A stretch of DNA of 64,000 nt from Dictyostelium discoideum (GCA_000004695.1 CM000151.3:320001-384000), one strand, 5' to 3'; positions 2,912-55,277 are shown, counted from the stretch's first letter. Numbers and translations: made by a program. The notes: generated by a model from the sequence alone, not told the origin.

Positions 2912-3320
2912 GGACACCCAAAAAAATTTTCATTTTATTTTTCATTTTTTTTTTTTTTTTTTTTACAAACAATAATTTAAATTTATTAATTCTTAATATG
3001 AATTAAGTATAGATAAATAGAGCACTCAAAAATACACAAAATGATATAAAAATTAAAAAAAATGAATGTAATCATTCTGTTTTTTGAATTTTTTATTTTA
3101 CTTTTTAAATCAAAATAAATTTTAAAGGCATTTTTAAATATCTTAAAAATATCTTAAAAATCACCTTTAAAATTATTTACCATTCATTCGTTTTTATCAA
3201 TAAAAAATAAAATTAGAAAAAAAAAAGAAAATTGTGATTTTTTTTTTTTTTTTATTTTTTTATTTTTTTTTTTTATTTTATTTTTTTTTTTTTTTTGGTT
3301 GTCCAATTTGAATGCTGTTA
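2912..3320. mobile_element. MITE-like short repeat with inverted termini CATTCAAATTGGACACC (2914-2932) and GGTTGTCCAATTTGAATG (3301-3318), immediately upstream of the first family-1 gene
   Basis: Inverted 17-18 bp termini seen directly. The internal block (tttaaatttattaattcttaatatgaattaagtatagataaatagagcactcaaaaatacacaaaatgatataaaa) recurs at 11410-11520 and partly at 18760-18830. A solo terminus occurs at 2711-2730. Confidence 0.35.
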
Positions 3321-3359
3321 TCAACCAAAAAAAAAATATAACAACTTAAACAAAAAATA

Positions 3360-5456
3360 ATGTCAAAAAATAAAAAAACTAAAACAGATAATAAAATATT
3401 TCAAGATGTTATTGATTTTGAAATTTTAAGACCTATAATCAATTATTTATTAATCAGCAAAAATAAAAATAATAATAATAATAATAATAATAATACTAAT
3501 AGTAATCAATATAAAATTAATAAATTTTATTTAAATAGAAATGAAATATTAAATTATATATTAGTTTCAAAAAAGTGGTATAATTTTATATCATTAACAA
3601 TATCAAATAATATAATTAATAATAAATCATTTGAAAATTGGTTAGAAATTAATAATAATAATAATAATAATAATAAATCATTTATTGAAAATTATAATAA
3701 TCAAAATCAATATGATAAAAATAATTTAATTTTTAATATTAAAAATGAAAAACCAAATTATTATAATCAAAAACGAAATAATACAGTTTTTAATAACAAA
3801 GAAGATAAACAAAATAAAATTAGTTTTAATAAAGAGTTTTCAATTATAAAAATCAAAGAATCAATAATCGATGATTATTTTAAATTCAATTTATTTTTAG
3901 ATGATATTACAATTGATGATTTTAAAGAAATTAAAAATAAATTTGAAAATAACCAATTACTATATAATAGAATTGTAGTTAATCTTAAAACTAGTGGTAA
4001 TAATACTTTATTTGAAATAAATGAATATGTATCAAATGAAAATTCAGAAATCGTATCAAATTTATTTAAAATATTAGAATTAAATTTTGATTTTTGGTTG
4101 GAGGATGGTTATAGTGCAAAATATGAAGAGTTGGAGGAGGAGGATGATCATGGTGGTAAGAAATGTACTGAATTATTTTTAATAAATAATTTATCAATTT
4201 CTGGTTTTAATATTAGTATAGGTAATGATGAAACATTAAAGATATTCAAAAATTTCAAAAGTAAACATATAATATATGATGGGTCAGATGATGTTGATAA
4301 TTATCAAGCGCATGCCAATTATTCAGTATTATTCGATCCAGATAATTCAGGTCAACAAGTTGAATCAATTAAAGTACAAAGTAAACATGGTAATAAAGAG
4401 TCTGTTGAACCACTCCATTTGATCAACGTTAATCAATTTGAAAATTTACATTCAATTACAATACCAATAAATTCAATTCTATTATTATCAGAGATATCTA
4501 AAGAAATGGGCTTTTATGGATTCTATGATGGAAATGCATATTCAAGTTTTACTGGAGATGTCAAATCAGAATTAATCGAAATGGTCTTTTCAATCGCTAC
4601 AAGTGAATCTTTAAAGAATTTAAATATAACATCAATCAATTTTGAACAATATCCAATTAATTTCCAAGATTACGCTCACTATTATTTATCTCTTCCTGGT
4701 GGTGGTGGTCTTGAATTTTTTGCAAACAAAATAAATGAAATTATAGAACAATTTTCAAATTCATTTCAACCATTATTTTCAGAATTAAATACATCAATTG
4801 AAAGAATTGAATTTGATTGTTGTGGTTTATTAAATATCAATACATTTTCAAATTTATTAAATAATAAATCAATTAAATATTTATATTTATATAATAGTGA
4901 TTTCATTGTTTATTCATTAAAACAAAATGATAGTGGTAGTGGTAGTATGAAGCAAATGCATAAAGAACCTATTTCAATTAATCAATATTTATTTGAAAAT
5001 ATATTTTCATCACCATTAACATCAATTAGACATTATAAAATTAATTTCAAAGAATCAAAACAAATCAAACCAGTATTTAATTTAATATTAAATAATATTT
5101 TTAAATTACAATTATATTCATTAATATTTGTATTAAATAAAAGTAAATTAATTGGTGAATTTGTTAAAGAATTTAAAAATTTAATAAATAATATTTCAAT
5201 ACAACTACAACATCAACAAGAACAACAACAACAACAAGAACAACAAAAACAAAAATTAAATAATATAAATTTAAAAGAATTTAAAATTAAAATTGAAATT
5301 GAAAATAAAATTAAAATTAAAATCAAAGATAAAAATGAAATTAAAATTAATGAAAGGTATATTCAAGAATTAAATAATATTGATAATCCATATTTCACAA
5401 CAGTAATAAAGAAGATAGTTAGAAATGAAACCCCAAAAAAAAATTATCGAAAATAA
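3360..5456 (+). CDS. Family-1 paralog, copy 1 (698 aa, uninterrupted): putative F-box-like N-terminus and an Asn-rich protein of unknown function
   Basis: Long ORF. The N-terminal segment KIFQDVIDFEILRPIINYLL...FYLNRNEILNYILVSKKWYNFISL resembles the F-box consensus (LP.EIL..I...L...VSK.W). Paralogous to 14485-16395 and to the pseudocopies listed below. Confidence 0.7.
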   Translation: MSKNKKTKTDNKIFQDVIDFEILRPIINYLLISKNKNNNNNNNNNTNSNQYKINKFYLNRNEILNYILVSKKWYNFISLTISNNIINNKSFENWLEINNNNNNNNKSFIENYNNQNQYDKNNLIFNIKNEKPNYYNQKRNNTVFNNKEDKQNKISFNKEFSIIKIKESIIDDYFKFNLFLDDITIDDFKEIKNKFENNQLLYNRIVVNLKTSGNNTLFEINEYVSNENSEIVSNLFKILELNFDFWLEDGYSAKYEELEEEDDHGGKKCTELFLINNLSISGFNISIGNDETLKIFKNFKSKHIIYDGSDDVDNYQAHANYSVLFDPDNSGQQVESIKVQSKHGNKESVEPLHLINVNQFENLHSITIPINSILLLSEISKEMGFYGFYDGNAYSSFTGDVKSELIEMVFSIATSESLKNLNITSINFEQYPINFQDYAHYYLSLPGGGGLEFFANKINEIIEQFSNSFQPLFSELNTSIERIEFDCCGLLNINTFSNLLNNKSIKYLYLYNSDFIVYSLKQNDSGSGSMKQMHKEPISINQYLFENIFSSPLTSIRHYKINFKESKQIKPVFNLILNNIFKLQLYSLIFVLNKSKLIGEFVKEFKNLINNISIQLQHQQEQQQQQEQQKQKLNNINLKEFKIKIEIENKIKIKIKDKNEIKINERYIQELNNIDNPYFTTVIKKIVRNETPKKNYRK

Positions 5457-5794
5457 ATCAGGTTCTTCTCATTAATTGTATGGGATTTTATTATTATAAT
5501 AATAATTTTTTTTTTATTTCTATAATTCATTTTTAAGTATCAAGGTTGGTTATATTATTTTATTTATATATTTATTTTAATTTCAAAGGATGGAAAGAAA
5601 TGTGGAGGTGAATCTATTTCTACTTATTTGATAAATAGTGTGTAGTCCTGTATTTGACGTTTTACCACCACCATCACAACTACTTGATTTATTTCCAGTA
5701 GTTGATTGATGGTACAGCATGAATAGTTGGCAGACTTCCATGGAAGTTGATGAATGAATTTTAAATTTAAATGGTTTAAAAATTTAAATGTTGT

Positions 5795-5885
5795 TTATTG
5801 GTGTGCACACAGGGTCATAGGTTCCCCGTCATTTTTTGAAAATGGGCATATCCCCTTAAAATAAAAAACTATATGCTAAAATTTA
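5795..5885 (+). repeat. About 95-bp GC-containing dispersed repeat; an inverted copy lies at 18540-18632
   Basis: tgtgcacacagggtcataggttccccgtcattttttgaaaatggg..atatcccttaaaataaaaa.ctatatgctaaaatttatctcttttt is present in opposite orientations at both sites. Each lies just downstream of a family-1 copy. Confidence 0.5.
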
Positions 5886-6164
5886 TCTCTTTTTATGTCC
5901 AATCATTTCATTACAGTTAGTGGTGGTGGTGGTGGTGGAACTATTACCAATACTATCTACTATTTCCTTTACTTTATTGTTGTTGTGTGATATATTGTTG
6001 ATTATTTATTTTTTTGCTGCATATTTTGTTTATTTATTTATTTTTTTTTTTTATTTTTTTATTTTATTTTTTAATCTCGAACGAAAAATTTTCAAAAAAA
6101 AAAAATTAACCTCTTTTGACATTATTATTTGTTTAAATTAACTCACTCTTTATAATTTAAACAA

Positions 6165-6201
6165 ATAATAATGTCAACAAATAAAAAAATTAACCAGCAA
6201 A

Positions 6202-6234
<33 letters not shown>

Positions 6235-6410
6235 TATAATAATAATAGTAATAATAATAATAATTATACTTCTAATAATATAAAATTAGTAAATAATATT
6301 AATCAATATAAAATTAGTAAATTTTATTTGAATAGAAATGAAATATTTAATTATATATTAGTTTCAAAAAAGTGATAATTTTATATCATTAACAATATCA
6401 AATAACATTA
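6165..6410 (+). pseudogene. Family-1 N-terminal fragment with internal deletions
   Basis: Conserved leader aaacaaataataatgtcaacaaataaaaaaatt followed by degraded matches to copy 1 (caatataaaattagtaaattttatttgaatagaaatgaaatat...). Confidence 0.5.
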
Positions 6411-6564
6411 TTAATAATAAATCAACAAACCCGCTTGCATAAAATTTAATAAAAATAAAATATAAAAAAAAAATAAAATAAAAATTTCTAAAAGTTTGGC
6501 AAACAAAAAAAAAATAAGTTTTTTATTCAAAACATACTCTTTATAATTTTTAAAACAAATAATA

Positions 6565-6675
6565 ATGTCAACAAATAAAAAAATTAAAACAGATAATAAT
6601 AATAATAATAAAATATTTCAAGAAATTATTGATTTTGGAATTTTAAAATCTTTAATCGATTATTTATTAATCAAC

Positions 6676-6746
<71 letters not shown>

Positions 6747-8340
6747 TAATAATCACAATACTAGTAATCAATATAAAATTAATAAATTTTATTTAAATAG
6801 AAATGAAATATTAAATTATATATTAGTTCAAAAAAGTGGTATAATTTTATATCATTAACAATATCAAATAATATTATTGATAATAAATTATTTGAACATT
6901 GGTTAAACATTAATAATATTAGTAATAAATCATTTATTGAAAATTATAATAATCGAAATCAATATGATAAAAATAATTTAATTTCTAAAAACAAAGAAGA
7001 TAATCATAATAAAATTAGTTTTAATAAAGAGTTTTCAATTATAAAAATCAAAGAATCAATAATCAATGATTATTTTAAATTCAATTTATTTTTATATAAG
7101 ATTACAATTGATAATTTTAAAGATATTAAAAATAAATTTGAAAATAATCAATTACTTTATAATAGAATTGTTGTTAATGTTGATACTGGTTATGATGAAG
7201 AGAATCTAGATGAAATTTTATTTAGGATACATGTGTATCAAATGAAAATTCAGAAATCATATCAAATTGATTTAAAATATTAGAAAAAAATTATGATTTT
7301 ATGGTAATCGATGGTTATAATACAAACTCTGAAGAGGAGGAGGAGGATAAAAGTAATAAGAAATGTACTGAAATATATTTTAATAATTTATCAATTGTAG
7401 GTTTTGATACAAATATAGGTGAGGATAGAGAAGCAGTAAAGATATTCAAAATATTCAAAAGTATAAATATATTTTATGATGGGACCTTTCTTAATGCTAT
7501 TCCAACACATGTCAATTATTCAGCATTATTTGATCCAGATAATTCAGGTCAACAAGTTAAATCAATTATAGTACAAATTGGACGTGAAGAATATTCTGAT
7601 TTTGTTGAACCACGTCATTTAATCAAAGTTAATCAATTTGAAAATTTACATTCAATTACATTTTCAATCAATTCATTTCAAATATTATCCAATCTATCGA
7701 AAGAAATGGGATATTTTAGTTTCAAATGTATAAAATCTGATTTTGGTAATTCAGATAATATCAAATCAGAATTAAATCAAATGGTAAATTCAATCATTAC
7801 AAGTAAATATTTAAAGAATTTAAAAATAACATCCATTAATACAGAAAAACATCCAATTGATTATGATACTTATTATGATTATGGTGAACCTCAAGCTTTT
7901 GTTAATAAAATAAATGAAACTGCAGAATCATTTTCAAATTCATTTAAACCATTATTTTCAGAATTAAATACATCAATCGAAAGAATTGAATTTGATTGTA
8001 TGGATCAATACATTTCAAAATTATTAAATAATAAATCAATTAAATATTTATATGATAGTGATTTCATTGTTTACTCATTAAAACCAAGTGGTGGTGCTGG
8101 TGGTGCTGATGGTAGTCAAGTACATAAAGAACCTATTTCAATTAATCTATATCTATTTGATAACATATTTCCATCACCATTTACATCAATTAGACATTAA
8201 AGAATTAAATTCAAAGAATCAAAACAATTAAAATTCATATTTAATTTAATATTAAATAATATTTTTAAATTACCATTATATTCATTAATATTTGAAGAAT
8301 TAATTAATATTAATAGTCTATATTTCAAAATAGTAATAAA
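6565..8340 (+). pseudogene. Family-1 paralog, copy 3, disrupted by frameshifts and stop codons
   Basis: ORFs 6565-6858 and 7301-8200 are collinear with copies 1 and 5 (...FDPDNSGQQVKSI..., NTSIERIEFDC...) but the frame is broken at about 6850, 7250 and 8200. Confidence 0.6.
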
Positions 8341-8675
8341 GAATAACTATAAATATGAACGTGACATTTTTCAAAAACTCTTCATCAGTCCAAAAGCCCC
8401 AAAAAAAAATAAAAATAAAAATTGAATAAACACACTGCAAAAATTAATAATATTTTAATTTTTTATTATTTTTTTTTCAAATAGTTTTTAGCTTTTTCTT
8501 TATTTATCATTTTTTTAATTTCTTTTAAATTTATTTTTTATGTAATTTTAAAAACATTCAAACCAAATATCAATATTACACTTTTCAAATAAGCTTAAAA
8601 AATAATAAAATAATAAATAAAAAGTGTGGAATTTTAAAGATTTTTTGACTTAACCGATTTATTAATAAATTTTTT

Positions 8676-10048
8676 TTAAAGTTCAATTTTTGGTTCCCAA
8701 CCTAACATGGTAACATCACAATTTTTCACCTTTGGATGAGTGAGTTGTTGTTTATATTTTGGAGTTCTGTAAACAAAAGTTTCAAATGGGAAATTTGTTA
8801 AAGGAGTATCAAAAAGGTATAAATTAACTGATTGTGGTATTTCACTTTTTTCTTGATTAAATCCATCTAATAAAAACCAATTGGAAACACAATTTGGTAT
8901 TGAACCTTTTAATAATGGTTTTTTAATTGCACCAACGAGCAGATATGTAATTGATTCTGGTAGCATACCTTTTGTTAGTTGAATATTGAATCCATCAAGT
9001 AATAGTAAAAATTGAACCGATGTTGGAATTGAACCTATTTCAATTGTTTTAACACTTGGTGCAATCGCTACACGAATAGTACCTTTTGGAATGACAGAAT
9101 CATTTTTATAAAAAAAATATTCATATCCTAAAACTGTATATAATAATTTAATATTAATAAAATAATTTAAATAAACAAAACCACAATTATTATTATTGTA
9201 GTTTTATTTTTTCAAAATATTTACCAGTAACTCTTTTTGGATCCTTTACATTTGTAATAGAGGGGGAATCTCTAATTTCAAATATTTCTTTAATTGAATT
9301 TTTAACTTGTTCACTATTTACAATATTTACATTTTTATATTGATTCATTAATTCTTTGATTTTATTAACATTTTGATTATCTTTTATTAATAGTTGTGAT
9401 TGGTGACAATGTTTTAACATTTCAATATGTTGATAACTATTATTATTATTGTTTTTATTATTATTAATGATTTCATCAATATTTATTTGATTTATTGTAT
9501 TTTTATATTTATTTGTAATTAAATTAATAATATTTAAATTATCATGTATAGTGGTTGAAATATTTGTATTGGTATCTTTATTTTCATCATAGATTGTTAC
9601 TAATTGTTTGATTTTATCAATTTCAATGATTTGTAATAATTTGGAGAGTTCTTTAAATTCTTCTGTGATTGTATTTACATTTTCAGTGTGTTTATCTTCT
9701 AATGATTTAAATAAATTATTTGATTCTTTCAATAGCTCATTATTGATACCGATTTGGTTATTTAAATTTTGAAGGTGATTATTTTTGAATTCTTCAAAGA
9801 TTGCTTTTGAATTCTCTACATCTATATGATCAAATTTATGACCAATATGACCTGAAACAATACAATCATTACATACTACTGTCTGTTATAATTGTAATAA
9901 TATGAATGAAAATAATTAGTAAGAATTACTTTTTTTTTATTTATTAAAATGTAGAATAATAACTACCTTACAGGTTGAACAAATCAATTTAATATCATAC
10001 TCTTTATGTATTGAACATTTGTTATCATATTTATTTATATTATCCATT
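8676..10048 (-). CDS. B-box zinc-finger, coiled-coil, FNIP-repeat protein. Three exons: about 9970-10048, about 9193-9885 and 8676-about 9120.
   Basis: Translation MDNINKYDNKCSIHKEYDIKLICSTCK / TVVCNDCIVSGHIGHKFDHIDVEN... (B-box-type Cys/His pattern). ORF 9193-9732 is coiled-coil-like. The C-terminal exon carries FNIP-type repeats (IPTSVQFLLLLDGFNIQ...LPESITYLLVGAIKKPLLKGSIPNCVSNWFLLDGFNQ). Confidence 0.6.
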
Positions 10049-10229
10049 GTAAAAATTTTGAAATGATTTAAAAAAAATAAATTTTGGTGTTAAGATTCAA
10101 AAAAAAAAAAATAAAAAAAAAATAAAAAAAAATAAAATAAAATAAAAAAAATAAAAATTAAAAAAAGAAAATCTTATTATTATTATAGCAATGAATTAAA
10201 AATTTTTTATTTATTTATTTATTTGTTTA

Positions 10230-10923
10230 TTTGTTGTTTATGTAATCCGAAGTGATTTGAGGTTGTGATGGTGATTGTGTTGTTGGATATGTTTGTTGTT
10301 GTTGTTCTTGTGGTGATTTTTGAGTTTGTTCTACTGGTTATTGTGTTTGTATTTGGTGAATATTGTTGATGTATTATTAAAAGATTGAAAATCTTGATTT
10401 TTCCAATCACTGATGCTGAATTAACACTACCAAATCTAATACAATGTCGTTGTATTTGATTTTTGAAAATTTGCTAAAATATTTCACCACTAGTTGTGGC
10501 ACTATCGGTATCAACACCCCTCTGCTATGTCGTCAGGGAAAAGGAATTGAACTTTTAATGGTACCTTTTTACCAAGTGCTTCGATCTCTGTATCTACACA
10601 GGTGTTAATGAATGTGGACCCAATTGAGTGAGTGCATCCAACCTATAGAGACAATACTAGCGAAACCATCATCATCATCTCTACTTTATTTAAAAGAGTG
10701 TAAATAGTTTGAAACATACTTTGAAAGTCTTGATATCGGGTGCAAATGAACCACAACACCACAACAAAGTGATAACAATTCCCAACCTCTAAAGCTTTAT
10801 TCTCTCTCTCTTTTACCTGGATGACCTGTCAATTGTTTAATGATTTGACAATAGATTTCATCACGTAACTCTGGATGATTTAAACATTGACGAACATAAA
10901 TGTACAAATTTGATTATGTGGTT

Positions 10924-10966
<43 letters not shown>

Positions 10967-11100
10967 CCCATATATTATAAATTTGCAACAATTGATGCAT
11001 TTAAATTATTATTATTATTTATATTATCATTATTTGATGAAAATACTTTATTAACGACAACTGGTGATGTTGAAGGAAAATAAATAAATGATGGGTTACA
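10230..11100 (+). repeat. Segmental duplication, copy 1 (about 0.9 kb); second copy at 16640-17840. Contains a (TTTC)n microsatellite at 10921-10970.
   Basis: Long collinear identity between 10400-11090 and 16780-17840, e.g. ccaatcactgatgctg.attaacacta...ttcaccactagttgtggcactatcg.tatcaacacc...tacctggatgacctgtcaattgtttaatgatttga.aatagat.tcatcacgtaactctggatgattt. Confidence 0.65.
10816..10905 (-). pseudogene. Orphan exon fragment encoding a MyTH4-domain segment (..[30 protein letters not shown]), carried inside the segmental duplication. Second copy at 17612-17687.
   Basis: Minus-strand translation matches the conserved MyTH4 core ([16 protein letters not shown].np). It is followed by a GTAAAAG...AG intron-like segment and [10 protein letters not shown]. 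No upstream exons are present in the window. Confidence 0.45.
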
Positions 11101-11189
11101 AAAAATTTTCAGTGTGAGATTTGAAAAAAAAAAATTAAAAAAAAAAAAATAAAAAAAATAAAAAAAAAATAAAAAAAATAAAAAAAAAA

Positions 11190-11242
11190 GGATATATAAA
11201 AATCAAATCTAACCATTTGTTAGATTTGATTTTTATATATCC
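11190..11242. repeat. Perfect 24-bp inverted repeat (hairpin) with a 5-nt loop
   Basis: ggatatataaaaatcaaatctaac cattt gttagatttgatttttatatatcc. Confidence 0.6.
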
Positions 11243-12784
11243 TAAAAAGGATTTAGTAGATAAATTGTAAAAACATTCAAGATGGACAACCAAAAAAAAA
11301 AAAAAAAAAATTTTCTTTTAACGGGCGAATATATTTTATAAAAAATAATGTTTATATTGATGAACATTCAAATTAGACCCAAAAAAAAAAAAAAAAAAAA
11401 AAAAAAAATCGATAACAATTTAAATTTATTAATTTTTAATATGAATTTAGTATAGATAAATAAAGCACCCAAAAATACACAAAATGATATAAAATATATC
11501 AAAAACGAATTTAATTATTATTATTATTTTTAATTTTTTTTTTTTTTTTTTTTTTTTGGGTTCAATCGAGAAAAAAAAAATTAACTTGGCTGAAATAATT
11601 GTTTTATTTTTATTTTTTAATAATGAATTTAATCTTGATCAGTGTAAATATTTTTATTTTTTTAATTTTTTTATTTTTTTTTTTTTTTTTTTATTTTTTT
11701 TTTTTTTATTTTTTTTTGTTATCCCAGATTTTAATTTTTTATTTTTTATTCATCCCTTTTTTATTATATTTTAGTTATTTTATTTAACAACAAACACTGT
11801 TCTTTTTCTTTTATTTCTTTTAGTTTATCTTGGTCGAATTCAATGCCAAAACCATCATTATATGTTTCTTGAAGATCACCTAACATACAGAGTATTAAGA
11901 CGATTTTGTTTAAATGATCCAAATTTCCTCGGTATGTTGAAATTATTTTAAAATGATTAATTTTTTAAAAAAAAGTTTTCCACATACACACGGTTGGAGC
12001 TTACAAAATTAGGTAAAGATATATCTAGAAAAAAAAATAATAAAATAATAAAAAATAAAAAATACCAATAATATAATTATTTTAATAATAATAAAAAAAA
12101 AAAAAAATAAAAAAAATAAAAAAAATAATAATAAAATAAAATTAATAACAAAGTATTATAAGAAAGAGATTTGGTTATTTAAAATAATTACCCAATATTG
12201 GAAAGCTATCATGTTTACGAATAATTTGACCATTATTATAGTATTGTGGCTCTCTATTTTGGTCTTTTATAGTATATATTTGATCATGATCAGGAACCTG
12301 GGAATCCCTCAGGATGTAGTAAAATAATCTGTATGATCTAGTGCATACCTTACAATGAAATTTGACCACATGACTTTGCTTTTACCAGAATAGTATTTTT
12401 TTTTGGATTTGGTAATCAGTGGGAGTTTAAATATCAATAGGAGCAAGGAGCACAATTGGCAGAAGGATTTGATTTTCTTGGTGTTGGCATTTGTTTTCTT
12501 TTTTTTGGAATATGCATTTGCCGAGTATCAAGTATCATATTTTATTACCCACAAGAGAGCAAATAAGCGTTTTATTTGGGTCTGATGTGGCCAATAAATG
12601 GTCAATCAAAAATAATTGTTTACCTTTAAAAACAACATTGTTTCCTTTTTTACACTGTTCAGCAATTGCAAGTGAAAAAGCTAATATAAAACCCAATATA
12701 GATGCTTTTGGAAATATTGATGTGTTGATCCAACCAAAGGAAATAAAAAAAGTTGATGAAGAAGAATGGATCGAGAATTAATTA

Positions 12785-13040
12785 ATTGGAAAAAAAAAAT
12801 CAAAAAAAATCAAATCAAATCAAATCAAATCAAATCAAATCAAATAAAATCCAATCCAATAAAATAAAATAAAATAAAATAGAATCGAATTAAATTAAAC
12901 AAAATCAAAAAAAAAAAAAAAAAAAAAAAAATTAATTAATTAATTAAATAAATAAATAAAATTGGATAATGCAAATTAATCTTTATTTTGTTTTTAAATT
13001 ATTATTTATTATTATTGTTTTTTATTATTTATTATTTTTT
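12785..13040 (+). repeat. About 250-bp dispersed repeat: a (CAAAT)n microsatellite plus a conserved unique tail (..ataaaattggataatgcaaattaatctttatttt.tttttaaattattatttattattattg..). Second copy at 20085-20310; partial at 51320-51440.
   Basis: Direct comparison of the two regions. Confidence 0.55.
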
Positions 13041-13148
13041 GAAATATTGCGATTTCTCGCAACTCTATTGTTTTTATCAATTTAATAATAATAAAAAAAA
13101 AAAAAAAAAAAAAAAAATTTTCATTTACAATTTTTACAAAAAATAATA

Positions 13149-13960
13149 ATGTCAACAAATAAAAAAGTTAAAACAGATAATAATAATAAAATATTTCAAG
13201 ATTTAATTGATTTTGAAATTTTAAGATATTTAATCGATTATTTATTAATCAGCAAGAAAAATAAAAATAAAAATAAAAATAATAATCAATATGAAATTAA
13301 TAGATTTTATTTTAATAGAAATGAAATATTAAATTATATATTAGTTTCAAAAAAGTGGTATAATTTTATATCATTAACAATATCAAATAATATTATTGAA
13401 AAAAAATCATTTGAACATTTGTTAGAAATTAAAAATAATAATAAAAAATCATTTATTAAAAATTATAATAATCAAAATCAATATGATAAAAATAATTTAA
13501 TTATCAAGGATCTATATTAGTTTTAATAAAGAGTTTTCAATTATAAAAATCAAAGAATCAATAATCGATGATTATTTAAAATTTAATTTATTTTTATATG
13601 GCATTACAGTTAATGATTTTAAAGAAATTAAAAAGAAATATATTTGATAATAATCAATTAGTTTATAATAGAATTGTATTTGATGTTTACTAATGATACA
13701 GATTATGATTATGGTGATTATAGTATTTTATTTAAAATACATAAATATGTATCAAATGAAAATTCAGAAATCATATCAAACTTATTTAAAATATTATAAT
13801 TAAATTTCGATCCTTTTTTAACCACTGGTTATAGCCCAAAATCTGAACATGATGAAAGTTATAAGAAATGTAGTGAAATATATTTTAATAAATTATCAAT
13901 TATGGGTTCTGATAGAGATATTAATATGGTAATTTTAGACTCCTGAAATTGATATGGATG
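13149..13960 (+). pseudogene. Family-1 paralog, copy 4, degraded by frameshifts and stops after about 125 codons
   Basis: ORF 13149-13520 MSTNKKVKTDNNNKIFQDLIDFEILRYLIDYLL... followed by collinear but out-of-frame homology. Ends in a fragment of the 'aaattaatatggctgctgaaattaatatgg' terminal-repeat unit at 13935-14030. Confidence 0.6.
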
Positions 13961-14338
13961 CAAATTAAATTAATATGGCTGCTGAAATTAATATGGCTGC
14001 TTAAATTAAATTAATATGGATGCAAATTAATAAATAAATAAATAAAAAAAAAAAAAAAAAAAAATTTAATTTATAAAAAAATTTAGAATAATATTCATAA
14101 TCCATTTTTCAAAACAATAATAAAGAATAACAAATAATAACTATCAGTAATAATATTAAAAAAAATAAAAAAAATAAAATAAAAGAAATAATAAAATAAA
14201 AAAGAGGTACAATTCAGGTTTCTGAATTTCTTTTTTTTCAATTTATTAATAAAAAGAATTCTTTTTAAAAAAATATTCAAACTAAATATCAACATTACAC
14301 TTTTCAAATAAATTTAGAAAATAGTATTAAAATAATAA

Positions 14339-14375
<37 letters not shown>

Positions 14376-14484
14376 ACTTTCTAAAAAAAAAACCAACTAC
14401 CAATCAAAAGATTTTTTTTTTTTTTTTTTTTTTATTTTTTTTTTTTTTTTTAATTTGTCAGACTCTTAAAAATTTAAACAAATA

Positions 14485-16395
14485 ATGTCAACATATAAAA
14501 TTAAAATAGATAATAAAATATTTCAAGATCTTATTGATTTTGAAATTTTAAGATCAATAATTAATTATTTATTAACCAGCAAAAAAAATAAAAAAAAAAA
14601 TAGTACTAATAATAGCAATACTAGTAATCAATACAAAATTAATAAATTTTATTTTAATAGAAATGAAATATTAAATTATATATTAGTTTCAAAAAAGTGG
14701 TATAATTTTATATCATTAACAATATCAAATAATATTATTAATAATAACTTTTTTGAACATTGGTTAAAAATTAATAATAATAAATCATTTATTGAAAATT
14801 ATAATAATCAAAATCAATATGATAAAAATAATTTAATTTTTAATAACAAAGGTCGTAAACAATATAAAATTAGTTTTAATAAAGAGTTTTCAATTATAAA
14901 AATCAAAGAATCAATAATCAATGATTATTTTAAATTCAATTTATTTTTAAATAATATTACAATTTATGTTTTTAAAGAAATTAAATACAAATTTGAAAAC
15001 AATCAATTACTTTATAATAGAATTGTAGTTAATATGGATACAAATTATGGTGAAGGGAATAAAGATGAAATTTTATTTAAAATACATAAATATGTATCAA
15101 ATGAAAATTCAGAAATCATATTAAATTTATTTAAAATATTAGAATTAAATCATGATTTTATGATAACCCATCTTCCGGGTTCTGAAGAGGTGGAGGATGA
15201 AGGTAATAAGAAATGTACTGAATTTCATTTAAATAATTTATCAATTTGTTGTTTTGATAGATGTGTAGGTGAAGATAGAAAAACATTAAAGATATTCAAA
15301 AATTTCAAAGGTAAAAATATAATTTATGATGGACCCAATGTTACTTATGATATTACAACATATATCGATTATTCAGTATTATTTGACCCAGACACTTCAG
15401 GTCAACAAGTTGAATCTATTAAAGTAAAAAATGAATATGAGGATTGTGCTAATTTTGTTGAAGCACGTCATTTAATCAAAGTTAATCAATTTGAAAATTT
15501 ACATTCAATTAAAATACCATTGAATTCATTTCAAATATTATCAAACTTATCTGAAGAATTGGGGTTTGATGGTTTCGATTGTTTTAAATCAGATTTTGGT
15601 TATTCAGATAATATGAAATCAGAATTAAATCAAATGATAAATTCATTTATTACAAGTAAATCTATAAAGAATTTAAAAATAACATCCATTATTTCAACAG
15701 AAGATTCTCCAATTGAATATCATACTTCTTGTGATGAAAGTAATATTCAAACTTTTATTAATAATATAAATGAAAGTAAAGAATCATTTTCAAATTCATT
15801 TAAACCATTATTTTCAGAATTGAATACATCAATTGAAAGAATTGAATTTGATTGTATGGGTTTATTAAATATCAATACATTTTCAAAATTGCTAAATAAT
15901 AAATCCATTAAATATTTATATTTATATGATAGTGATTTCATTTTTTATTCACTAAAACCAACTGGTGGTGATAGTGATGATGATGATGATGATGATGGTG
16001 ATGGTGGTAGTGCAGTACTTCAAGAAACTATTTCAATTAATCAATATTTATTTGAAAATATATTTTCATCACCATTAACATCAATTAGACATTATAAAAT
16101 TAATTTCAAAGAATCAAAACAATTAAAATTCATATTTAATTTAATATTAAATAATATTTTTAAATTACAATTATATTCATTAATATTTGTATTCAATGAT
16201 AACGAATTAATTGGTGAATTTGTTAAAGAATTTAGAAATTTAATTAATAATATTTCAACACAACAACAACAAAAATCAAATAACATAAATTTGAAAGAAA
16301 TTAAAATTGAAATGTATGATGAAAACTATTTCCAAGAATTAAATAATATTAATAGCCCATATTTCAAAACTGTAATAAAGAATTACCAATATTAA
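14485..16395 (+). CDS. Family-1 paralog, copy 5 (636 aa, uninterrupted)
   Basis: Long ORF collinear with copy 1 (MSTYKIKIDNKIFQDLIDFEILR...SIRHYKINFKESKQLKF...). Conserved 5' leader (aaatttaaacaaataatgtcaaca) and conserved 3' flank (caaactaaatatcaacattacacttttcaaataa). Confidence 0.7.
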   Translation: MSTYKIKIDNKIFQDLIDFEILRSIINYLLTSKKNKKKNSTNNSNTSNQYKINKFYFNRNEILNYILVSKKWYNFISLTISNNIINNNFFEHWLKINNNKSFIENYNNQNQYDKNNLIFNNKGRKQYKISFNKEFSIIKIKESIINDYFKFNLFLNNITIYVFKEIKYKFENNQLLYNRIVVNMDTNYGEGNKDEILFKIHKYVSNENSEIILNLFKILELNHDFMITHLPGSEEVEDEGNKKCTEFHLNNLSICCFDRCVGEDRKTLKIFKNFKGKNIIYDGPNVTYDITTYIDYSVLFDPDTSGQQVESIKVKNEYEDCANFVEARHLIKVNQFENLHSIKIPLNSFQILSNLSEELGFDGFDCFKSDFGYSDNMKSELNQMINSFITSKSIKNLKITSIISTEDSPIEYHTSCDESNIQTFINNINESKESFSNSFKPLFSELNTSIERIEFDCMGLLNINTFSKLLNNKSIKYLYLYDSDFIFYSLKPTGGDSDDDDDDDGDGGSAVLQETISINQYLFENIFSSPLTSIRHYKINFKESKQLKFIFNLILNNIFKLQLYSLIFVFNDNELIGEFVKEFRNLINNISTQQQQKSNNINLKEIKIEMYDENYFQELNNINSPYFKTVIKNYQY

Positions 16396-16639
16396 CTGGT
16401 AACAATATTAAAAAAAAAAATAAAATAAAATAAAAATAATAATATTCGGAAAACATTGAAACCATAATGTTAAAAATAAAAAATAAAAAATAAAAATAAA
16501 AATAAAAATAAAAATAAAAATAAAAATAAAAATAAAAATTAAAAATAGTTATAAAAATAATAATAAAAATAAAAATAAAAAAATAATAATTAAAATAAAA
16601 ATTTTGTTTGTTTAAATTATCATTTTTATCTTTAAAATT

Positions 16640-17840
16640 GAAAAAAAGGTCTGAAGTGATTTGGTTAATCAGTAGTTGTGAACGTGATTATGTTGTTGGA
16701 TATGTTTGTTTGTTGTTGTGATGTTTGAGTTTATTGTATTGTTGATGTATTATTAAAAGAGTGAAAATCTTGATTTTTACCAATCACTGATGCTGCATTA
16801 ACACTAACGACTAATACAATGTCATTGAATTTGAAAATTTCCTAAAATATGACCTGTCTCTACCACCTAAACTACTATTTTCTCTTCTTATACCACAATC
16901 AATACTATTTCCATCAACAGAATTTAAACTTGATAAACTTGTTGTTGATGCTACTGTTGCTGTATATTGAATTGAAGACGTAGAGCTGATAATTTTACGA
17001 CTAATTGGTAAATGATCTTTTGAAACGGATCTTAATAATTGATGGAAATAGAAACCAACTTGAAACTCACGAGGCGGTCTCTCTGGTTTTAAGAATAATT
17101 GAATCTTGAAATAGAATTGAAAAGGTTCCAATAGAATTCGTTCTGTTGTTGTTACACATGAAGATTATAATGATTCAAATTAAAGTAATGAATTCTCCCA
17201 TTTACTAACTAGATATCTAAAATGAATTCACTATTGGATATGGATCTCTCTTTATTCTTTAAAACTTCAAAAACTGACAAAACAAAAGCATCCGATTTTA
17301 AACCTGCCAATTTGGTTAGTCTATTGGTAATTTCACCACTAGTTGTGGCACTATCGATATCAACACCGCTCTGCCACGTCGTCAGGGAAAAGGAATTGAA
17401 CTTTTAATGGTACTTTTTGCCAAATGCTTCGATCTCCATATCTACACAGGTGTGTTAATGAACGTGAACCCAATTGAGTGATTGCATAGAGATAATACTT
17501 CACCACCTCTACTTTGTTTAAAAGAGTGTAAATAGTTGAAACATACTTTGAAAATCTTTATATCAGGTGCAAAGTGATAACAATTCCCAACCTAGCTTTA
17601 TTCTCTCTCTTTTACCTGGATGACCTGTCAATTGTTTAATGATTTGATAATAGATCTCATCACGTAACTCTGGATGATTTAAATGTGGTTTCTTTCTTTC
17701 TTTCTTTCTTTCTCCCATATATTGTAAAATATGTGAAAATACTAATGCTATCTTTTTAAAATTTGCAATTTATATTATTATCATTATTTGATGAAAATAT
17801 TTTATTAACAACACCTGGTGATGCAGAAAGGGTAGTTGAT
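16640..17840 (+). repeat. Segmental duplication, copy 2. It carries an extra about 480-bp block (16850-17330) absent from copy 1.
   Basis: See 10230-11100. The extra block carries minus-strand ORF 16811-17131. Confidence 0.6.
16811..17131 (-). pseudogene. Orphan C-terminal coding fragment (...[50 protein letters not shown]). A paralogous fragment lies at about 30780-30990 (-), adjacent to an (AAC)n tract.
   Basis: Minus-strand translation at 30800-30900 gives TTTASTINLTSLSGLNSIDGSSICRG*, homologous to this ORF. Confidence 0.3.
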
Positions 17841-18011
17841 GGACAAAAGCCAAACTAGTAATACCTTGTGGTGTGAGGGTTTGAATAGAGAAAAATCTGG
17901 AATTTTTCTGAATATACCTTTACCAGTGGAGAGATAATCGATAGCCAACGTTCGGGAACAGAAAGCAACGATTGGAATTACAATTTACTATTACCGTACT
18001 ACTACTACTAT

Positions 18012-18059
<48 letters not shown>

Positions 18060-18296
18060 CACTTCTACAATCTTTACTATTCTTTCCAATTGGTGCTATC
18101 ATCTGGAGTTTAATTTCTATGAATCCATAACCTATCTGTTATTTTGTAACTAATTCGAGCGTATTATGCCTGCGAGAAACTCAAAAAGATATCTCAATTT
18201 TTTAATTTTTTTTTTTATTTTTTTAATTTTTTTTATTTTAATTTTTTTTTTTTTTTTTTTGAAATCTTCCCTCTTATATAATTTAAACAAATAATA

Positions 18297-18480
18297 ATGT
18301 CAACAAATAAAAAAGTTAAAACAGATAATAATAATAAAATATTCCAAGATATTATTGATTTTGAAATTTTAAGATCTATTATCAATTATTTATTAACCAG
18401 CAATAATACTAGTAATAATAATAATAGTAATCAATATAAAATTAAAAAATTTTATTTAAATAGAAATGAAAAAGCAGGTA
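18297..18480 (+). pseudogene. Family-1 N-terminal fragment (61 conserved codons), truncated at the 95-bp GC repeat
   Basis: MSTNKKVKTDNNNKIFQDIIDFEILRSIINYLLTS...FYLNRNE, then loss of homology at about 18475 followed by the inverted copy of the 5795-5885 repeat (18540-18632). Confidence 0.55.
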
Positions 18481-18872
18481 TCTATTGGTTAGATAAGCAT
18501 TCACTGATTTAGTCGATAATATTAAGATTGATGAATATAAAAAGAGATAAATTTTAGCATATAGCTTTTTATTTTAAGGGATAGGCCCCATTTTCAAAAA
18601 ATGACGGGGAACCTATGACCCTGTGTGCACCAAATACAGTAGGTTACTATGTCAACGATCTCCTTTACACAATGTCATCACCACATTCAACTTATTATGA
18701 GGCCACTGACACACCCAAAGGTACAACTTACTTTGTTTTAGTAGTTACAATAAAATTGTTCAAATTAATACACAAAATGATATGAAATATAAAAAAAATG
18801 AATATTATAATTCTATTTTTAGAATTTTTTTTTTTTTTTTAATTTATTATCATAAAAACATTTTTGGTTGTG

Positions 18873-18908
<36 letters not shown>

Positions 18909-18949
18909 AACATTAACCAGTCAGGTACGCTCTATAAACAAAATATAAT

Positions 18950-19039
18950 GTCAACAAGTAAAAAAATTAAAACAGATAATAATAATAAAATATTTCAAGA
19001 TCTTATTGATCTATAACCAATTATTTATTAACCAGCAAA

Positions 19040-19109
<70 letters not shown>

Positions 19110-19420
19110 TTTCTTTTTAAAGTTGAAAAAAAAAAAAAAAGGTATGCTACAAGAAATCAAAAAATTCTTCGAAAATTAATGAAGTTTTTTTACATTATAT
19201 AATGATAAGGAATTAGTTGATGAATTTATTAAAGAATTTAAAAATCTAATAAATAATATTTCAACAAAACAAGAACAAAAATCAAGAAACATATTTTTTA
19301 AAGAAATTTCTTTACGTATTAATATGATTCAATTCTTCTAAATACGTAAATAAGTATTTAGAAGAATTGAATCATATTAATAATCCATTTTTCAAAACAA
19401 TAATAAAGAGTTACCAATTA
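18950..19420 (+). pseudogene. Heavily deleted family-1 copy: start fragment at about 18953-19040 and C-terminal fragment at about 19195-19420
   Basis: aatgtcaacaagtaaaaaaattaaaacagataataataataaaatatttcaagatcttattgat...; later ...ttagttgatgaatttattaaagaatttaaaaatctaataaataatatttcaac...ccatttttcaaaacaataataaagagttaccaa. A 28-bp inverted duplication lies at 19318-19381. Confidence 0.5.
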
Positions 19421-20029
19421 CAATACAAAACTATCAGTAATTATATTTAAAAAAAATAAAATGAGGTACATCTTAATCAAGGTTTCTATTTCAATTAATT
19501 ACAATTACTAATAAATAATTTGAAAATTATCAAACCAAATATCAACATTCTATTTTTCAAATAAAATTAATAATATAATTTATTTATTTTTATTTGTTTT
19601 TTTATAATTTATTAATTTACTTTTTTTTCACTATTTTTTTTTAATTGAAAAGGGGTAGGGGTGAAAAAAAGAAAAAAAAAGGGAAAATGTAAAGGTGAAT
19701 AATTTCTGAAAAAAAAAAAAAAAAAAAGTGGAAAATTCCACAATAAAATTTTAACTCAATCTAATAAAAATGCCTCAATAATAATGTTTTAAATTTCAAA
19801 TGTATCATTCTTCCATATGATGTTTCTGAAACCAATAAATTCCCTTCCCATGGACTTCTGATGATCCTCTTGATATAGCCATCAACCTTCCAGATTGTTA
19901 TGAATATAGTATACAATAGTGTTAGCCAATTTCCGGAAAAAAAATCCAATTTATGGCGGAAAATGGAAAATGGAAGATTTTCCAATATATTTTTAAATAG
20001 TGGAAATAATTGGAAAAAAGATTATAATG

Positions 20030-26998: not shown

Positions 26999-27021
26999 CA
27001 ATAAATTTTTAAAATTGAAAG

Positions 27022-27095
27022 TATTCAGAGCGGGAATCGAACCCACGACCTAATCCGTGTTAAGGATTCGTGATAACCGACTACACCATCCGAAC
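27022..27095 (-). tRNA. tRNA-Val (anticodon AAC)
   Basis: Minus strand reads GTTCGGATGGTGTAGTCGGTTATCACGAATCCTTAACACGGATTAGGTCGTGGGTTCGATTCCCGCTCTGAATA. Acceptor stem 7 bp including G-U pairs; D-arm GTGT/TCAC; anticodon stem AATCC/GGATT with loop TTAACAC; T-arm GTGGG-TTCGATT-CCCGC; A and B box-like elements present. Confidence 0.8.
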
Positions 27096-28022: not shown

Positions 28023-30199
<2,177 letters not shown>

Positions 30200-34690: not shown

Positions 34691-35092
34691 AATAAATATA
34701 ATTAATAATATTAAAAAAAAAAAAAAAAAACGAAATCAGGGAAGTTCCAAACAAAAAATCATATTTCTATTTTTTATTATTGTTTTTAATTCTTTACAAA
34801 CTATCATTTACTAATCGAAATTGATAGATTTGATTTCAATCGCTCCACTTGTGAATGTTGTTACTTACCTCGTGACGAAACTGTTGGACCAAACAGTAGA
34901 CATCATGATGCAATGGTAAATATCTTTGAAACATAATTAAAAACTAAATTATTTTTATCATATTGATTGATTATTATCATTATTATTATTTTTATAATTA
35001 ATTTTTAACCAATGTTCAAATGATTGATTATTATTTGAAATTGTTAATGATATAAAATTATACCACTTTTTTAAAACTAATATATTACATTT

Positions 35093-35134
<42 letters not shown>

Positions 35135-43439: not shown

Positions 43440-44990
<1,551 letters not shown>

Positions 44991-46486: not shown

Positions 46487-46526
<40 letters not shown>

Positions 46527-49800: not shown

Positions 49801-49815
49801 TTTGGGAAAATGAAA

Positions 49816-49850
<35 letters not shown>

Positions 49851-55060: not shown

Positions 55061-55277
55061 AAATTGAAATCCTTTTTTATATAGAATTATTAAAAAAAAT
55101 AAAAAATAAAAAATAAAAAATAAAAAAAAATAAAAAAATAAAATTAAAAAATAAAATTAAAAAATAAAATAAATTAATGAATGTTTTATTTTATTTTACA
55201 TATAACAATAAATTTTTTTTTTATTTTTTTTTTTAATTAGTCAAAGGCTTTTAAAAAAAAAAAAAAAAAATTAAATA

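What the first reader, a model, noticed from the sequence alone, without database searches (positions are those of the whole stretch)
3360..19420. Birth-and-death tandem array of an F-box-like gene family with conserved 5' and 3' flanks
At least seven collinear copies share the leader 'ataatttaaacaaataat(a)ATGTCAAC' and a 3' flank 'caaac.aaatatcaacattacacttttcaaataa'. Two are long uninterrupted ORFs (3360-5456, 14485-16395). The others are N-terminal stubs, frameshifted copies or deletion remnants. An eighth copy lies inverted at about 54.1-55.06 kb. The N-terminus (KIFQDLIDFEILR…NEILNYILVSKKWYNFISL) resembles an F-box, and the remainder has conserved blocks (FDPDNSGQQVESIKV; NTSIERIEFDC; SIRHYKINFKESKQ) with no recognisable fold. 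The duplication unit co-amplified flanking segments: a MyTH4 exon fragment block at 10230-11100 and 16640-17840, and a 95-bp GC repeat at 5795 and 18540. This indicates unequal crossing-over.
Basis: partly seen in the sequence, partly recalled or inferred. Interest (0 to 1): 0.5.

Follow-up and report, generated by a model that had tools for sequence, protein, structure and literature searches.

The report
Tandem F-box/LRR gene array, Dictyostelium
This stretch of Dictyostelium discoideum chromosome 2 is the decaying end of a larger tandem array of genus-specific genes for F-box/leucine-rich-repeat proteins that have already been reported to bind Skp1, so it is a real but fairly ordinary gene family evolving by duplication and loss.

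Summary
The repeats are real. Seven same-strand copies share the leader …TTTAAACAAATAATAATGTCAAC. Two are intact ORFs (3360-5456; 14485-16395 = DDB_G0271434). The rest are frameshifted, truncated or internally deleted. There is also an inverted dead copy (54110-55069) and an unreported fragment (34936-35110). Copies are only 71-81% identical. An independent assembly reproduces window 4467-26435 at 99.7%, with no difference inside any copy, so this is not an assembly artefact.

- The 3' flank is shared by three copies, not seven.
- The two GC repeats are inverted relative to each other.

The F-box call fails Pfam thresholds because an Asn/Lys-rich loop splits it. It is still the top sub-threshold hit, and a profile comparison supports it (hhalign P=2.6e-5; 0 of 150 shuffles reach it). 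Boland et al. 2022 (PMC9485057) co-purified DDB_G0271434 and six paralogues with Skp1.

All 20 of the 55 cluster representatives whose source I checked, and all named hits, are Dictyostelium. At least 41 sequence clusters are named from one wild isolate, against about 14 genes in AX4. dN/dS is about 0.9, yet ORFs stay open where 10-14 stops are expected under neutrality. Low novelty.

The parts
3258..3359 (+). Conserved upstream leader/promoter region of copy C1
   Evidence: Aligned to the C4 upstream region 14412-14484 by blastn. Leader alignment.
3360..5456 (+). C1: intact family gene, 698 aa (split F-box plus LRR solenoid)
   Evidence: Uninterrupted ORF. Residues 1-665 are identical to database protein P0047.
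5803..5896 (-). Conserved GC-richer intergenic element that normally follows a family gene
   Evidence: 95.8% identical to 18537-18630 in inverted orientation. The same element lies 3' of family genes in L001 (three times) and L003.
6152..6424 (+). S1: leader plus N-terminal remnant lacking F-box helix 1; dead
   Evidence: Exact leader match. The Trp codon is disrupted (AAAAAGTGATAA), read. 8 stops in the HSP. A 27-nt leader fragment lies head-to-head at 6115-6141 (-).
6565..8356 (+). C2: full-length pseudogene
   Evidence: Reading frame changes 1>3>2. 1-nt deletion near 6826 and 4-nt deletion near 7231 relative to C1, C3 and C4. 2 stops. Identical in the independent assembly.
8550..8623 (+). 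3' flank block containing AAATATCAAYATTACACTTTTCAAATAA (C2 copy)
10088..11069 (-). MyTH4-like pseudo-exon block 1, co-duplicated with the family gene
   Evidence: Direct repeat of 16468-17823 at 70-74% identity. The minus-strand translation reads [38 protein letters not shown].
13149..13916 (+). C3: N-terminal ~260 codons only (123-aa ORF, then decay); truncated pseudogene
14269..14345 (+). 3' flank block (C3 copy), lying directly upstream of the C4 leader
14485..16395 (+). C4: intact family gene, 636 aa, = DDB_G0271434, a published Skp1 interactor
   Evidence: ORF. Matches P0001, DDB_G0271434. Structure model. Listed in Fig. S3 of PMC9485057.
16468..17823 (-). MyTH4-like pseudo-exon block 2
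   Evidence: blastn. PF00784 E=5.2e-12 for 17563-17718 (-).
18297..18470 (+). C5: N-terminal stub of 58 codons, broken inside the F-box helix 2 codons (NRNE)
18460..18729 (+). Inverted copy of the intergenic GC element, fused to stub C5
18948..19447 (+). C6: internal-deletion remnant (N-terminal 27 aa joined to the C-terminal ~110 aa)
19530..19565 (+). 3' flank block (C6 copy)
34936..35110 (-).
   Evidence: tblastn and blastn, 77-82% identity to C2, C3 and C4.
54110..55069 (-). C7: inverted dead copy covering aa 247-603
   Evidence: About 72% nucleotide identity; 11 stops in the aligned frame.

Best explanation
The region is the distal, decaying end of a tandem array of at least 70 kb on Dictyostelium discoideum chromosome 2.

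Each intact unit encodes a cytosolic protein of about 600-700 aa. At the N-terminus is a split F-box. Helix 1 is residues ~17-30 (IDFEILRSIINYL). A low-complexity Asn/Lys loop of 25-45 residues follows. Helices 2-3 are residues ~59-81 (NEILNYILVSKKWYNFISL). After the F-box comes an irregular LRR solenoid of about 15 repeats (residues ~150-636), with a conserved scaffold interrupted by hypervariable loops.

The most likely mechanism is that the F-box docks on Skp1, so the protein acts as an interchangeable substrate receptor of an SCF (Skp1/cullin-1/Rbx1) ubiquitin ligase. The LRR surface would select the proteins to be ubiquitinated.

The array grows by unequal exchange between the conserved leaders and flanks, which carries neighbouring fragments along (the MyTH4 pseudo-exons and the GC element). 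It shrinks by frameshift, truncation, internal deletion and inversion.

What is shown:
- the copies and their defects;
- the predicted LRR fold;
- the weak but specific F-box similarity;
- the restriction to one genus and the copy-number differences;
- published physical association with Skp1.

What is inferred:
- direct contact between the F-box and Skp1;
- ligase function;
- the substrates, which are unknown;
- that the variable loops bind the substrate.
For: Family and distribution:
- An exhaustive profile search of 1.84 billion representatives gave 55 hits. All 20 that I looked up are Dictyostelium: discoideum, citrinum, dimigraforme, firmibasis and purpureum.

Fold:
- In the AF2 model, residues 150-636 are confident apart from short hypervariable loops, and form alternating strand and helix.
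- Foldseek finds NLR LRR domains, ribonuclease inhibitor, SKP2 and FBXL3.

F-box:
- PF00646 is the top hit for the native N-terminal 106 aa (E=0.038).
- With the loop excised, PF12937 scores E=4.5e-4 and PF00646 E=0.0045, covering profile positions 6-36.
- F-box is the family most often matched across members and across distant relatives.
- hhalign of the family N-terminal profile against ten Pfam-validated F-boxes gives P=2.6e-5 over 42 columns spanning both halves. None of 150 column-shuffled controls reaches it.
- UniRef names the paralogue DDB_G0272490 'F-box domain-containing'.

Experiment (PMC9485057, Fig. S3): DDB_G0271434, 0271418, 0271408, 0271228, 0271202 and 0347826 are coded as found in Skp1 co-IPs, and 0271404 is listed as a Skp1 interactor without a co-IP code. 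All are drawn with an F-box-like sequence, with a loop between helices 1 and 2 for most of them, and most are marked 'LRR+'.

Selection:
- 11 intact genes have no stop codons.
- Neutral simulation at the same divergence gives 10-14 stops per lineage, with a minimum of 4 in 60 runs.

Array dynamics.
Against: - No Pfam F-box or LRR model reaches its gathering score.
- The core family lacks the canonical Leu-Pro; it has Q14 or I17-D18 where relatives have F-P or L-P.
- AF2 models the N-terminal 147 residues at pLDDT below 50, both alone and in the full-length protein, so the three-helix fold is not shown.
- A profile search of PDB sequences found nothing.
- Co-IP does not prove direct or F-box-mediated binding. 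Mass spectrometry may also not separate close paralogues.
- Pairwise dN/dS of about 0.93 is within the neutral baseline of the method (0.93-1.21). Constraint on amino-acid sequence is therefore weak on average.
- No substrate or phenotype is known.
Confidence: 0.75

Rival explanations
1. The proteins are LRR proteins whose N-terminal helices are not a working F-box. They meet Skp1 indirectly, as substrates or as passengers, and act outside SCF ligases, for example as scaffolds or binding proteins.
For: F-box scores are below Pfam thresholds. The canonical Leu-Pro is missing in the core family. The N-terminal model has low confidence. The paper itself calls some of its predicted F-boxes speculative.
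Against: The F-box similarity is specific: it is the top sub-threshold Pfam family, hhalign gives P=2.6e-5, and 0 of 150 shuffles reach it. It sits at the N-terminus in front of an LRR, the classical FBXL layout. Several paralogues were recovered with two different anti-Skp1 antibodies.
Confidence: 0.12
2. The family is largely functionless DNA. A recent burst of segmental duplication produced copies that now drift neutrally towards pseudogenes, and the intact ORFs are simply the youngest survivors.
For: dN/dS is about 0.93, inside the neutral baseline. 7 of the 9 copies or fragments in the window are dead. The tree is star-like. The neighbourhood is rich in transposons.
Against: At the observed divergence (dS about 0.18), neutral drift should give 10-14 stop codons per lineage. 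The 11 intact genes have none. Proteins from at least six members were detected by mass spectrometry. The scaffold and F-box blocks are much better conserved than the loops.
Confidence: 0.08
3. The copies are cargo of a mobile element and spread by transposition rather than by unequal exchange.
For: Dispersed members exist: DDB_G0269084 on chromosome 1, fragments at 34.9 kb and 54 kb in the window, and members on other contigs. A conserved GC element with a hairpin accompanies many copies.
Against: Copies are head-to-tail in one orientation with co-duplicated non-mobile flanks (the MyTH4 block). No terminal repeats, target-site duplications or transposase lie inside the unit. Unit boundaries differ between copies.
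Confidence: 0.03
4. The repeats are an assembly artefact, that is, a collapsed or expanded repeat.
For: None beyond the repetitive, low-complexity context.
Against: Copies are only 71-81% identical. An independent assembly reproduces 22 kb at 99.70%, including every frameshift.
Confidence: 0.01

Closest known systems
FBXL-type F-box/LRR substrate receptors of SCF ligases (SKP2, FBXL2, FBXL17, TIR1/COI1/D3)
   Different: The F-box is split by a 25-45-residue Asn/Lys loop and lacks the Leu-Pro. The LRR is irregular, with strand spacing of 23-56 residues and hypervariable inserts. Neither part is recognised by Pfam models. There are no orthologues outside the genus Dictyostelium.
Lineage-specific F-box gene expansions evolving by birth and death in plants and Caenorhabditis (for example PMC8665587, PMC8120010, PMC12951971, listed; I read only their titles and abstracts)
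   Same: Tandem arrays, many pseudogenes, large copy-number differences between close relatives, and fast protein evolution outside the F-box.
   Different: The substrate-binding domain differs: a divergent LRR here, against FTH/FBA/DUF or kelch domains there. The host is an amoebozoan. I ran no formal test of positive selection.
Other Dictyostelium candidate F-box proteins found as Skp1 interactors (Boland et al. 2022, PMC9485057), including FNIP/IP22-type LRR proteins
   Same: They come from the same experimental list and show the same tolerance of inserts between F-box helices. Most carry LRR-type receptors.
   Different: This family is a single recently expanded clade clustered on chromosome 2. 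Its tandem organisation, pseudogenes and copy-number variation are not discussed in that paper's main text.
NLR-type and ribonuclease-inhibitor-type LRR domains
   Different: There is no NACHT/NB-ARC or other nucleotide-binding domain. The resemblance is to the repeat fold only.

Membership tests
F-box proteins (SCF substrate receptors) | Sequence matches an F-box profile (PF00646 or PF12937) at or above the curated threshold | tested here: not met
   The full-length proteins give no hit. The native N-terminus scores 14.4 bits against a threshold of 20.5. With the loop excised it scores 20.4 bits against 24.3. 5 of 53 members give weak hits.
F-box proteins (SCF substrate receptors) | Profile-level similarity to bona fide F-boxes across helices 1-3 | tested here: met
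   hhalign gives probability 75%, P=2.6e-5, over 42 columns on both sides of the insert. None of 150 column-shuffled controls reaches the score (maximum 15.8 against 29.1).
F-box proteins (SCF substrate receptors) | Three-helix F-box fold | tested here: inconclusive
   Helices are predicted at residues 10-31, 59-68 and 70-81, where expected. However, pLDDT is below 50 in the full model and averages 50.7 in the N-terminal model.
F-box proteins (SCF substrate receptors) | Physical association with Skp1 | not testable with these tools
   Literature only. DDB_G0271434 (this window) and paralogues were recovered in anti-Skp1 co-IPs from vegetative cells and slugs (PMC9485057 Fig. S3). Direct binding through the F-box was not shown.
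F-box proteins (SCF substrate receptors) | N-terminal F-box followed by a protein-interaction domain | tested here: met
   The F-like motif is at residues ~17-81 and the LRR solenoid at 150-636.
F-box proteins (SCF substrate receptors) | Recruits substrates for ubiquitination | not tested
   No substrate, cullin association or phenotype is available for this family.
Leucine-rich repeat (RNI-like) solenoid proteins | Repeated strand-turn-helix units forming a curved solenoid | tested here: met
Leucine-rich repeat (RNI-like) solenoid proteins | Sequence match to LRR profiles | tested here: not met
   No Pfam LRR family matched at E<=10 for the window proteins or at E<=1 for the 53 aligned members.
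Birth-and-death tandem multigene family | Several same-orientation paralogues with shared flanks, plus pseudogenes and fragments | tested here: met
   The window holds 2 intact and 7 degraded copies. 8 further intact genes lie upstream, one of them on the opposite strand.
Birth-and-death tandem multigene family | Copy number differs between close lineages | tested here: met
   At least 41 clusters (90% identity) carry a representative from isolate ACTFIW, most on one 3.09-Mb contig. About 14 genes are named in AX4. There are 10 copies in 23 kb of L001. These counts are lower bounds taken from cluster representatives.
Birth-and-death tandem multigene family | Paralogues diverge independently rather than being homogenised (no strong concerted evolution) | tested here: inconclusive
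   Pairwise dS is 0.08-0.25 and the tree is star-like. However, there are islands of 93-99% nucleotide identity, shared by pseudogenes, and the trees of the N- and C-terminal halves disagree. This suggests some gene conversion.

The most novel reading that the evidence does not exclude
The array could be a rapidly diversifying set of SCF receptors whose hypervariable LRR loops track fast-evolving targets. Candidate targets are proteins of bacterial prey or symbionts, of selfish elements, or of other Dictyostelium strains. On this reading, copy-number and sequence differences between isolates would contribute to innate defence or to strain incompatibility or conflict in chimeras and crosses. 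That would be analogous to what has been proposed for the F-box expansions of nematodes and plants. The reading fits four observations. Amino-acid change is as fast as synonymous change while reading frames are kept open. Variation is concentrated in discrete loops. The family is restricted to one genus. Copy number differs about threefold between isolates.
Probability: 0.12. Interest if true: 0.7.

Novelty: new member of a known kind. Interest (0 to 1): 0.3.

Why it matters
At the protein level the point is already made. The gene in this window and its paralogues were published in 2022 as Skp1-associated, F-box-like, LRR-containing candidates.

This analysis adds the genomic and evolutionary picture:
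- The family forms a tandem array found so far only in the genus Dictyostelium, with many dead copies.
- Copy number differs about threefold between isolates.
- The F-box is split, which standard domain searches miss.
- Amino-acid change is nearly as fast as silent change even though the reading frames are kept open.

If the variable loops are under positive selection, the array would be a candidate recognition system in a social amoeba. That would be worth testing for roles in defence or strain conflict. Otherwise it is one more example of the well-known turnover of F-box gene families.

The analysis also flags a probable mis-annotated intron in the 615-aa database model of DDB_G0271434 that deletes part of the F-box.

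Tried and rejected
- Pfam on the full-length proteins gave no families.
- A profile search of PDB sequences gave no hit at E<=10.
- AF2 of the N-terminal 126 residues with a broadened alignment gave pLDDT 50.7. This was too poor for a fold search, so I ran none.
- The afdb50 fold library was unavailable.
- Exact-protein look-ups for P0001 and for the C1 ORF found nothing.
- A full-text search for the gene identifiers found no paper. The identifiers occur only in a supplement.
- A search for a Dictyostelium pangenome or copy-number paper found none.
- I suspected the GC repeat might be a tRNA or a known RNA. ARAGORN and Rfam found nothing there. The alignment shows a hairpin but no covariation.
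- I considered that the low synonymous divergence in conserved blocks proves gene conversion, and did not adopt it. These blocks are made of two-fold AT-ending codons, so strong protein constraint plus AT mutation bias could give the same pattern.
- I considered reading '11 stops' in C3 and C7 as a sign of great age, and rejected it. One or two frameshifts in AT-rich sequence produce many out-of-frame stops.
- I tested whether the neighbouring 23-51 kb family is also F-box-like. There was no F-box signal, only a weak Rho_N/SAP-like motif, and it is absent from the Skp1 list.

Full report
**Where the window comes from**

The window is about 80% A+T. The 636-aa ORF at 14485-16395 is DDB_G0271434 of Dictyostelium discoideum AX4, on the 8.48-Mb chromosome 2. 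An independent D. discoideum assembly (GCA_054883475.1, contig JBTAPE010000001.1) overlaps the window at 99.7%.

**Checking the observation**

Leader. The leader is real and non-random. The 27-mer matches 4 times against 0 expected, and the 20-mer 7 times against 0.26 expected. An alignment of the seven + strand starts shows …TTTAAACAAATAATAATGTCAAC in all of them.

Copies. tblastn and blastn define the following copies.

| Copy | Coordinates | State |
|---|---|---|
| C1 | 3360-5456 | intact, 698 aa |
| S1 | 6152-6424 | remnant without helix 1; the Trp codon is destroyed |
| C2 | 6565-8356 | full length; 1-nt deletion near 6826, 4-nt deletion near 7231, two stops |
| C3 | 13149-13916 | 123-aa ORF, then decay |
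| C4 | 14485-16395 | intact, 636 aa |
| C5 | 18297-18470 | 58-codon stub |
| C6 | 18948-19447 | N-terminal 27 aa joined to the C-terminal ~110 aa |
| C7 | 54110-55069 (-) | aa 247-603, many stops |

Three details in the finding are inaccurate:
- The 3' flank motif occurs only at 8565, 14284 and 19537, as a 35-77-nt block. It is absent after both intact genes.
- The two 95-nt GC repeats (5803-5896 and 18537-18630, 95.8% identical) are inverted relative to each other.
- The MyTH4-like blocks are correct, but they are coded on the minus strand. PF00784 scores E=5e-12 for 17563-17718, and both blocks carry stops and frameshifts.

An assembly artefact is excluded. Copies are only 71-81% identical. 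A 21,911-nt locus from the independent assembly aligns to window 4467-26435 in a single piece. It has 8 mismatches and 6 indels, all in A- or T-rich runs, and none lies inside a family copy. The frameshifts are therefore reproduced.

**The array is larger than the window**

Window position 1 corresponds to position 20471 of locus L002. Upstream, within about 47 kb, lie eight more intact members. They include DDB_G0271408, 0271412, 0271418 and 0271424, and one of them is on the opposite strand. The finding therefore covers the distal, most degraded end of an array of at least 70 kb.

In another isolate (GCA_054859355.1, locus L001), ten copies fill 23 kb. About half of them have frameshifts or stops.

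**Distribution**

A word-indexed search returned 86 homologues. All the named ones are D. discoideum or D. cf. discoideum, and none has a precomputed Pfam domain apart from one apparent fusion protein.

An exhaustive HMM search of 1.84 billion cluster representatives found only 55 hits. I looked up 20 of them, including the weakest. All belong to the genus Dictyostelium: discoideum, cf. discoideum, citrinum, dimigraforme, firmibasis and purpureum.

At least 41 clusters (90% identity) have a representative from isolate ACTFIW. Most sit on one 3.09-Mb contig, with locus tags 010987-011136. About 14 genes are named for AX4. These are lower bounds from cluster representatives, but they indicate copy-number variation of about threefold.

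**Fold**

AF2 with a 53-member alignment gives pTM 0.69. Residues 150-636 are confident apart from short hypervariable loops (pLDDT mostly 70-95). They form about 15 alternating strand-helix units.

It is a divergent LRR solenoid that Pfam LRR models do not detect.

**The F-box question**

Evidence against:
- Full-length proteins give no F-box hit, even at E<=10.
- AF2 does not resolve the N-terminus (pLDDT below 50).
- The core family lacks the canonical Leu-Pro, although relatives keep F-P or L-P.

Why the profiles fail: an Asn/Lys-rich insert of 25-45 residues separates IDFEILRSIINYL (helix 1) from NEILNYILVSKKWYNFISL (helices 2-3).

Evidence for:
- The native N-terminal 106 residues give PF00646 as top hit (E=0.038, 14.4 bits).
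- With the insert removed, PF12937 reaches E=4.5e-4 (20.4 bits, threshold 24.3) and PF00646 reaches E=0.0045. Both cover profile positions 6-36.
- F-box is the family most often matched among the 53 members and among distant relatives. These include a D. purpureum SAP-domain protein with F-box-like E=1e-3.
- I validated ten recalled F-box sequences against Pfam; all are above threshold. I then compared them with the family N-terminal profile. hhalign gives 75% probability, P=2.6e-5 and score 29.1 over 42 columns on both sides of the insert. None of 150 column-shuffled controls exceeds 15.8, and the reversed alignment scores 9.9.

Decisive outside evidence comes from Boland et al. 2022 (J Biol Chem 298:102305, PMC9485057), Fig. 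S3:
- It lists DDB_G0271434 (class 'pvs', 'LRR+', PhyA-enhanced in slugs), 0271418, 0271408, 0271404, 0347826, 0271228 and 0271202 among Skp1 interactors.
- The class codes v, s and u record recovery in anti-Skp1 co-IPs from vegetative cells or slugs. 0271404 carries no such code.
- For most of them, the predicted F-box-like sequences are drawn with a loop between helices 1 and 2, for example LINKKNNNNNNNTSNQYKINKFYF.
- The main text does not discuss the family's tandem organisation.

**Evolution**

Across 11 intact genes (window, L001, L002, L003), Nei-Gojobori estimates are dN 0.168 and dS 0.181, a ratio of 0.93. By region the ratio is 0.82 for the F-box, 0.85 for LRR helices and 1.05 for LRR loops.

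Neutral simulations in this base composition give a method baseline of 0.93-1.21. They predict 10-14 stop codons per lineage at this divergence, with a minimum of 4 in 60 runs. The 11 genes have none. The reading frames are therefore maintained by selection, although amino-acid change is on average about as fast as silent change.

Variability is concentrated in discrete patches, separated by almost invariant scaffold blocks. In C4 numbering the patches are residues 184-196, 223-240, 256-264, 284-293, 315-323, 361-374, 401-424 and 491-514.

Nucleotide identity is mosaic. It is 99% at C4 nucleotides 181-240 and 93-98% at 1321-1440, against 60-75% in the patches. Pseudogenes C2 and C3 share the high-identity islands. 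Trees of the two gene halves disagree and are star-like. Some gene conversion is possible but not proven.

**Duplication mechanism**

The C2 and C4 units each carry a MyTH4-like block downstream, in direct orientation. The block follows C4 immediately. After C2 it is separated by a 1.7-kb segment that holds a B-box/FNIP gene.

The GC element is a regular component 3' of family genes, in one orientation, in L001 (three times), L003 and after C1. The copy at 18.5 kb is inverted. It is fused to stub C5 inside the NRNE codons, so it marks an inversion or illegitimate junction rather than simple co-amplification.

Same-orientation units, shared flanks and copy-number variation fit unequal exchange. 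This mechanism is inferred, not shown.

**Verdict**

The finding is real and its main interpretation is right. At the protein level it is already published. At the genome level it is a further example of a well-known kind, lineage-specific F-box gene arrays evolving by birth and death. I rate interest at about 0.3. The upside is the untested possibility that the variable LRR loops are under diversifying selection for recognition.

Noticed in passing
window 5803-5896 (-) and 18460-18729 (+); L001 4485-4682, 8630-8893, 15657-15841; L003 14913-14952: A GC-richer intergenic element of about 100 nt (…GGGGATAGGCCCCATTTTCAAAAAATGACGGGGAACCTATGACCCTGTGT…) is 88-96% identical between repeat units, although the genes in those units are only 72-81% identical. 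It can form a 13-bp hairpin. It matches no Rfam family, and its function is unknown.
   Followed up: partly
window 14626-14688 (within C4, 14485-16395): The 615-aa database model of DDB_G0271434 (P0001, with NCBI and UniRef sources) splices out 63 nt. These encode SNQYKINKFYFNRNEILNYIL, that is, F-box helix 2. All paralogues keep this stretch as coding, at about 99% nucleotide identity. The newer assembly calls the full 636-aa ORF. This is probably a spurious intron.
   Followed up: partly
window 23222-51153 (for example the intact ORF 38067-40898, 943 aa; copies at 23222-25782, 31938-34690, 35407-36592, 45283-46305, 50131-51153): A second, unrelated tandem family lies here, also with intact, split and truncated copies. 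It has a weak Rho_N/SAP-like N-terminal motif (E=3.7e-4). It shows no F-box signal and is absent from the published Skp1 interactor list.
   Followed up: partly
window 29003-30193 and 52595-53770; 28039-28125: A pair of inverted repeats of about 1.2 kb, 95-100% identical apart from one ~320-nt segment at 86%, brackets 22 kb. Each arm carries an ORF (29161-29697 and 53067-53492). Next to one arm is a perfect-hairpin match to Rfam mir-7131. The same repeat occurs upstream of the window (L002 7303-8662), so it is probably a transposon family.
   Followed up: no
window 44427-44852, 46275-50136, 57800-63757, 27021-27095: The region holds transposon debris. There is a DDE_3 transposase fragment, and a retroelement piece with an integrase fragment that is 97-100% identical to a copy about 30 kb upstream (L002 12192-17535). 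There are also non-LTR reverse-transcriptase ORFs at the right end. A tRNA-Val(AAC) gene lies at 27021-27095 (-).
   Followed up: no
window 8676-10047 (-): A gene annotated in the newer assembly with B-box zinc-finger and weak FNIP-repeat hits sits between pseudogene C2 and MyTH4 block 1. It has no counterpart after C4, so it is an insertion into one duplication unit or a deletion from the other.
   Followed up: no
window 6115-6141 (-) and 6152-6178 (+): Two leader fragments, including the ATG, lie head-to-head 10 nt apart. This is a small inverted duplication at the start of stub S1.
   Followed up: no
C4 nt 181-240 and 1321-1440 (window 14665-14724 and 15805-15924) and the matching parts of C1, C2 and C3: There are islands of 93-100% nucleotide identity among paralogues that are otherwise 20-30% divergent, and the frameshifted pseudogenes share them. 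Trees of the N- and C-terminal halves disagree. This is compatible with local gene conversion, but strong constraint plus AT-biased codons is an alternative explanation.
   Followed up: partly
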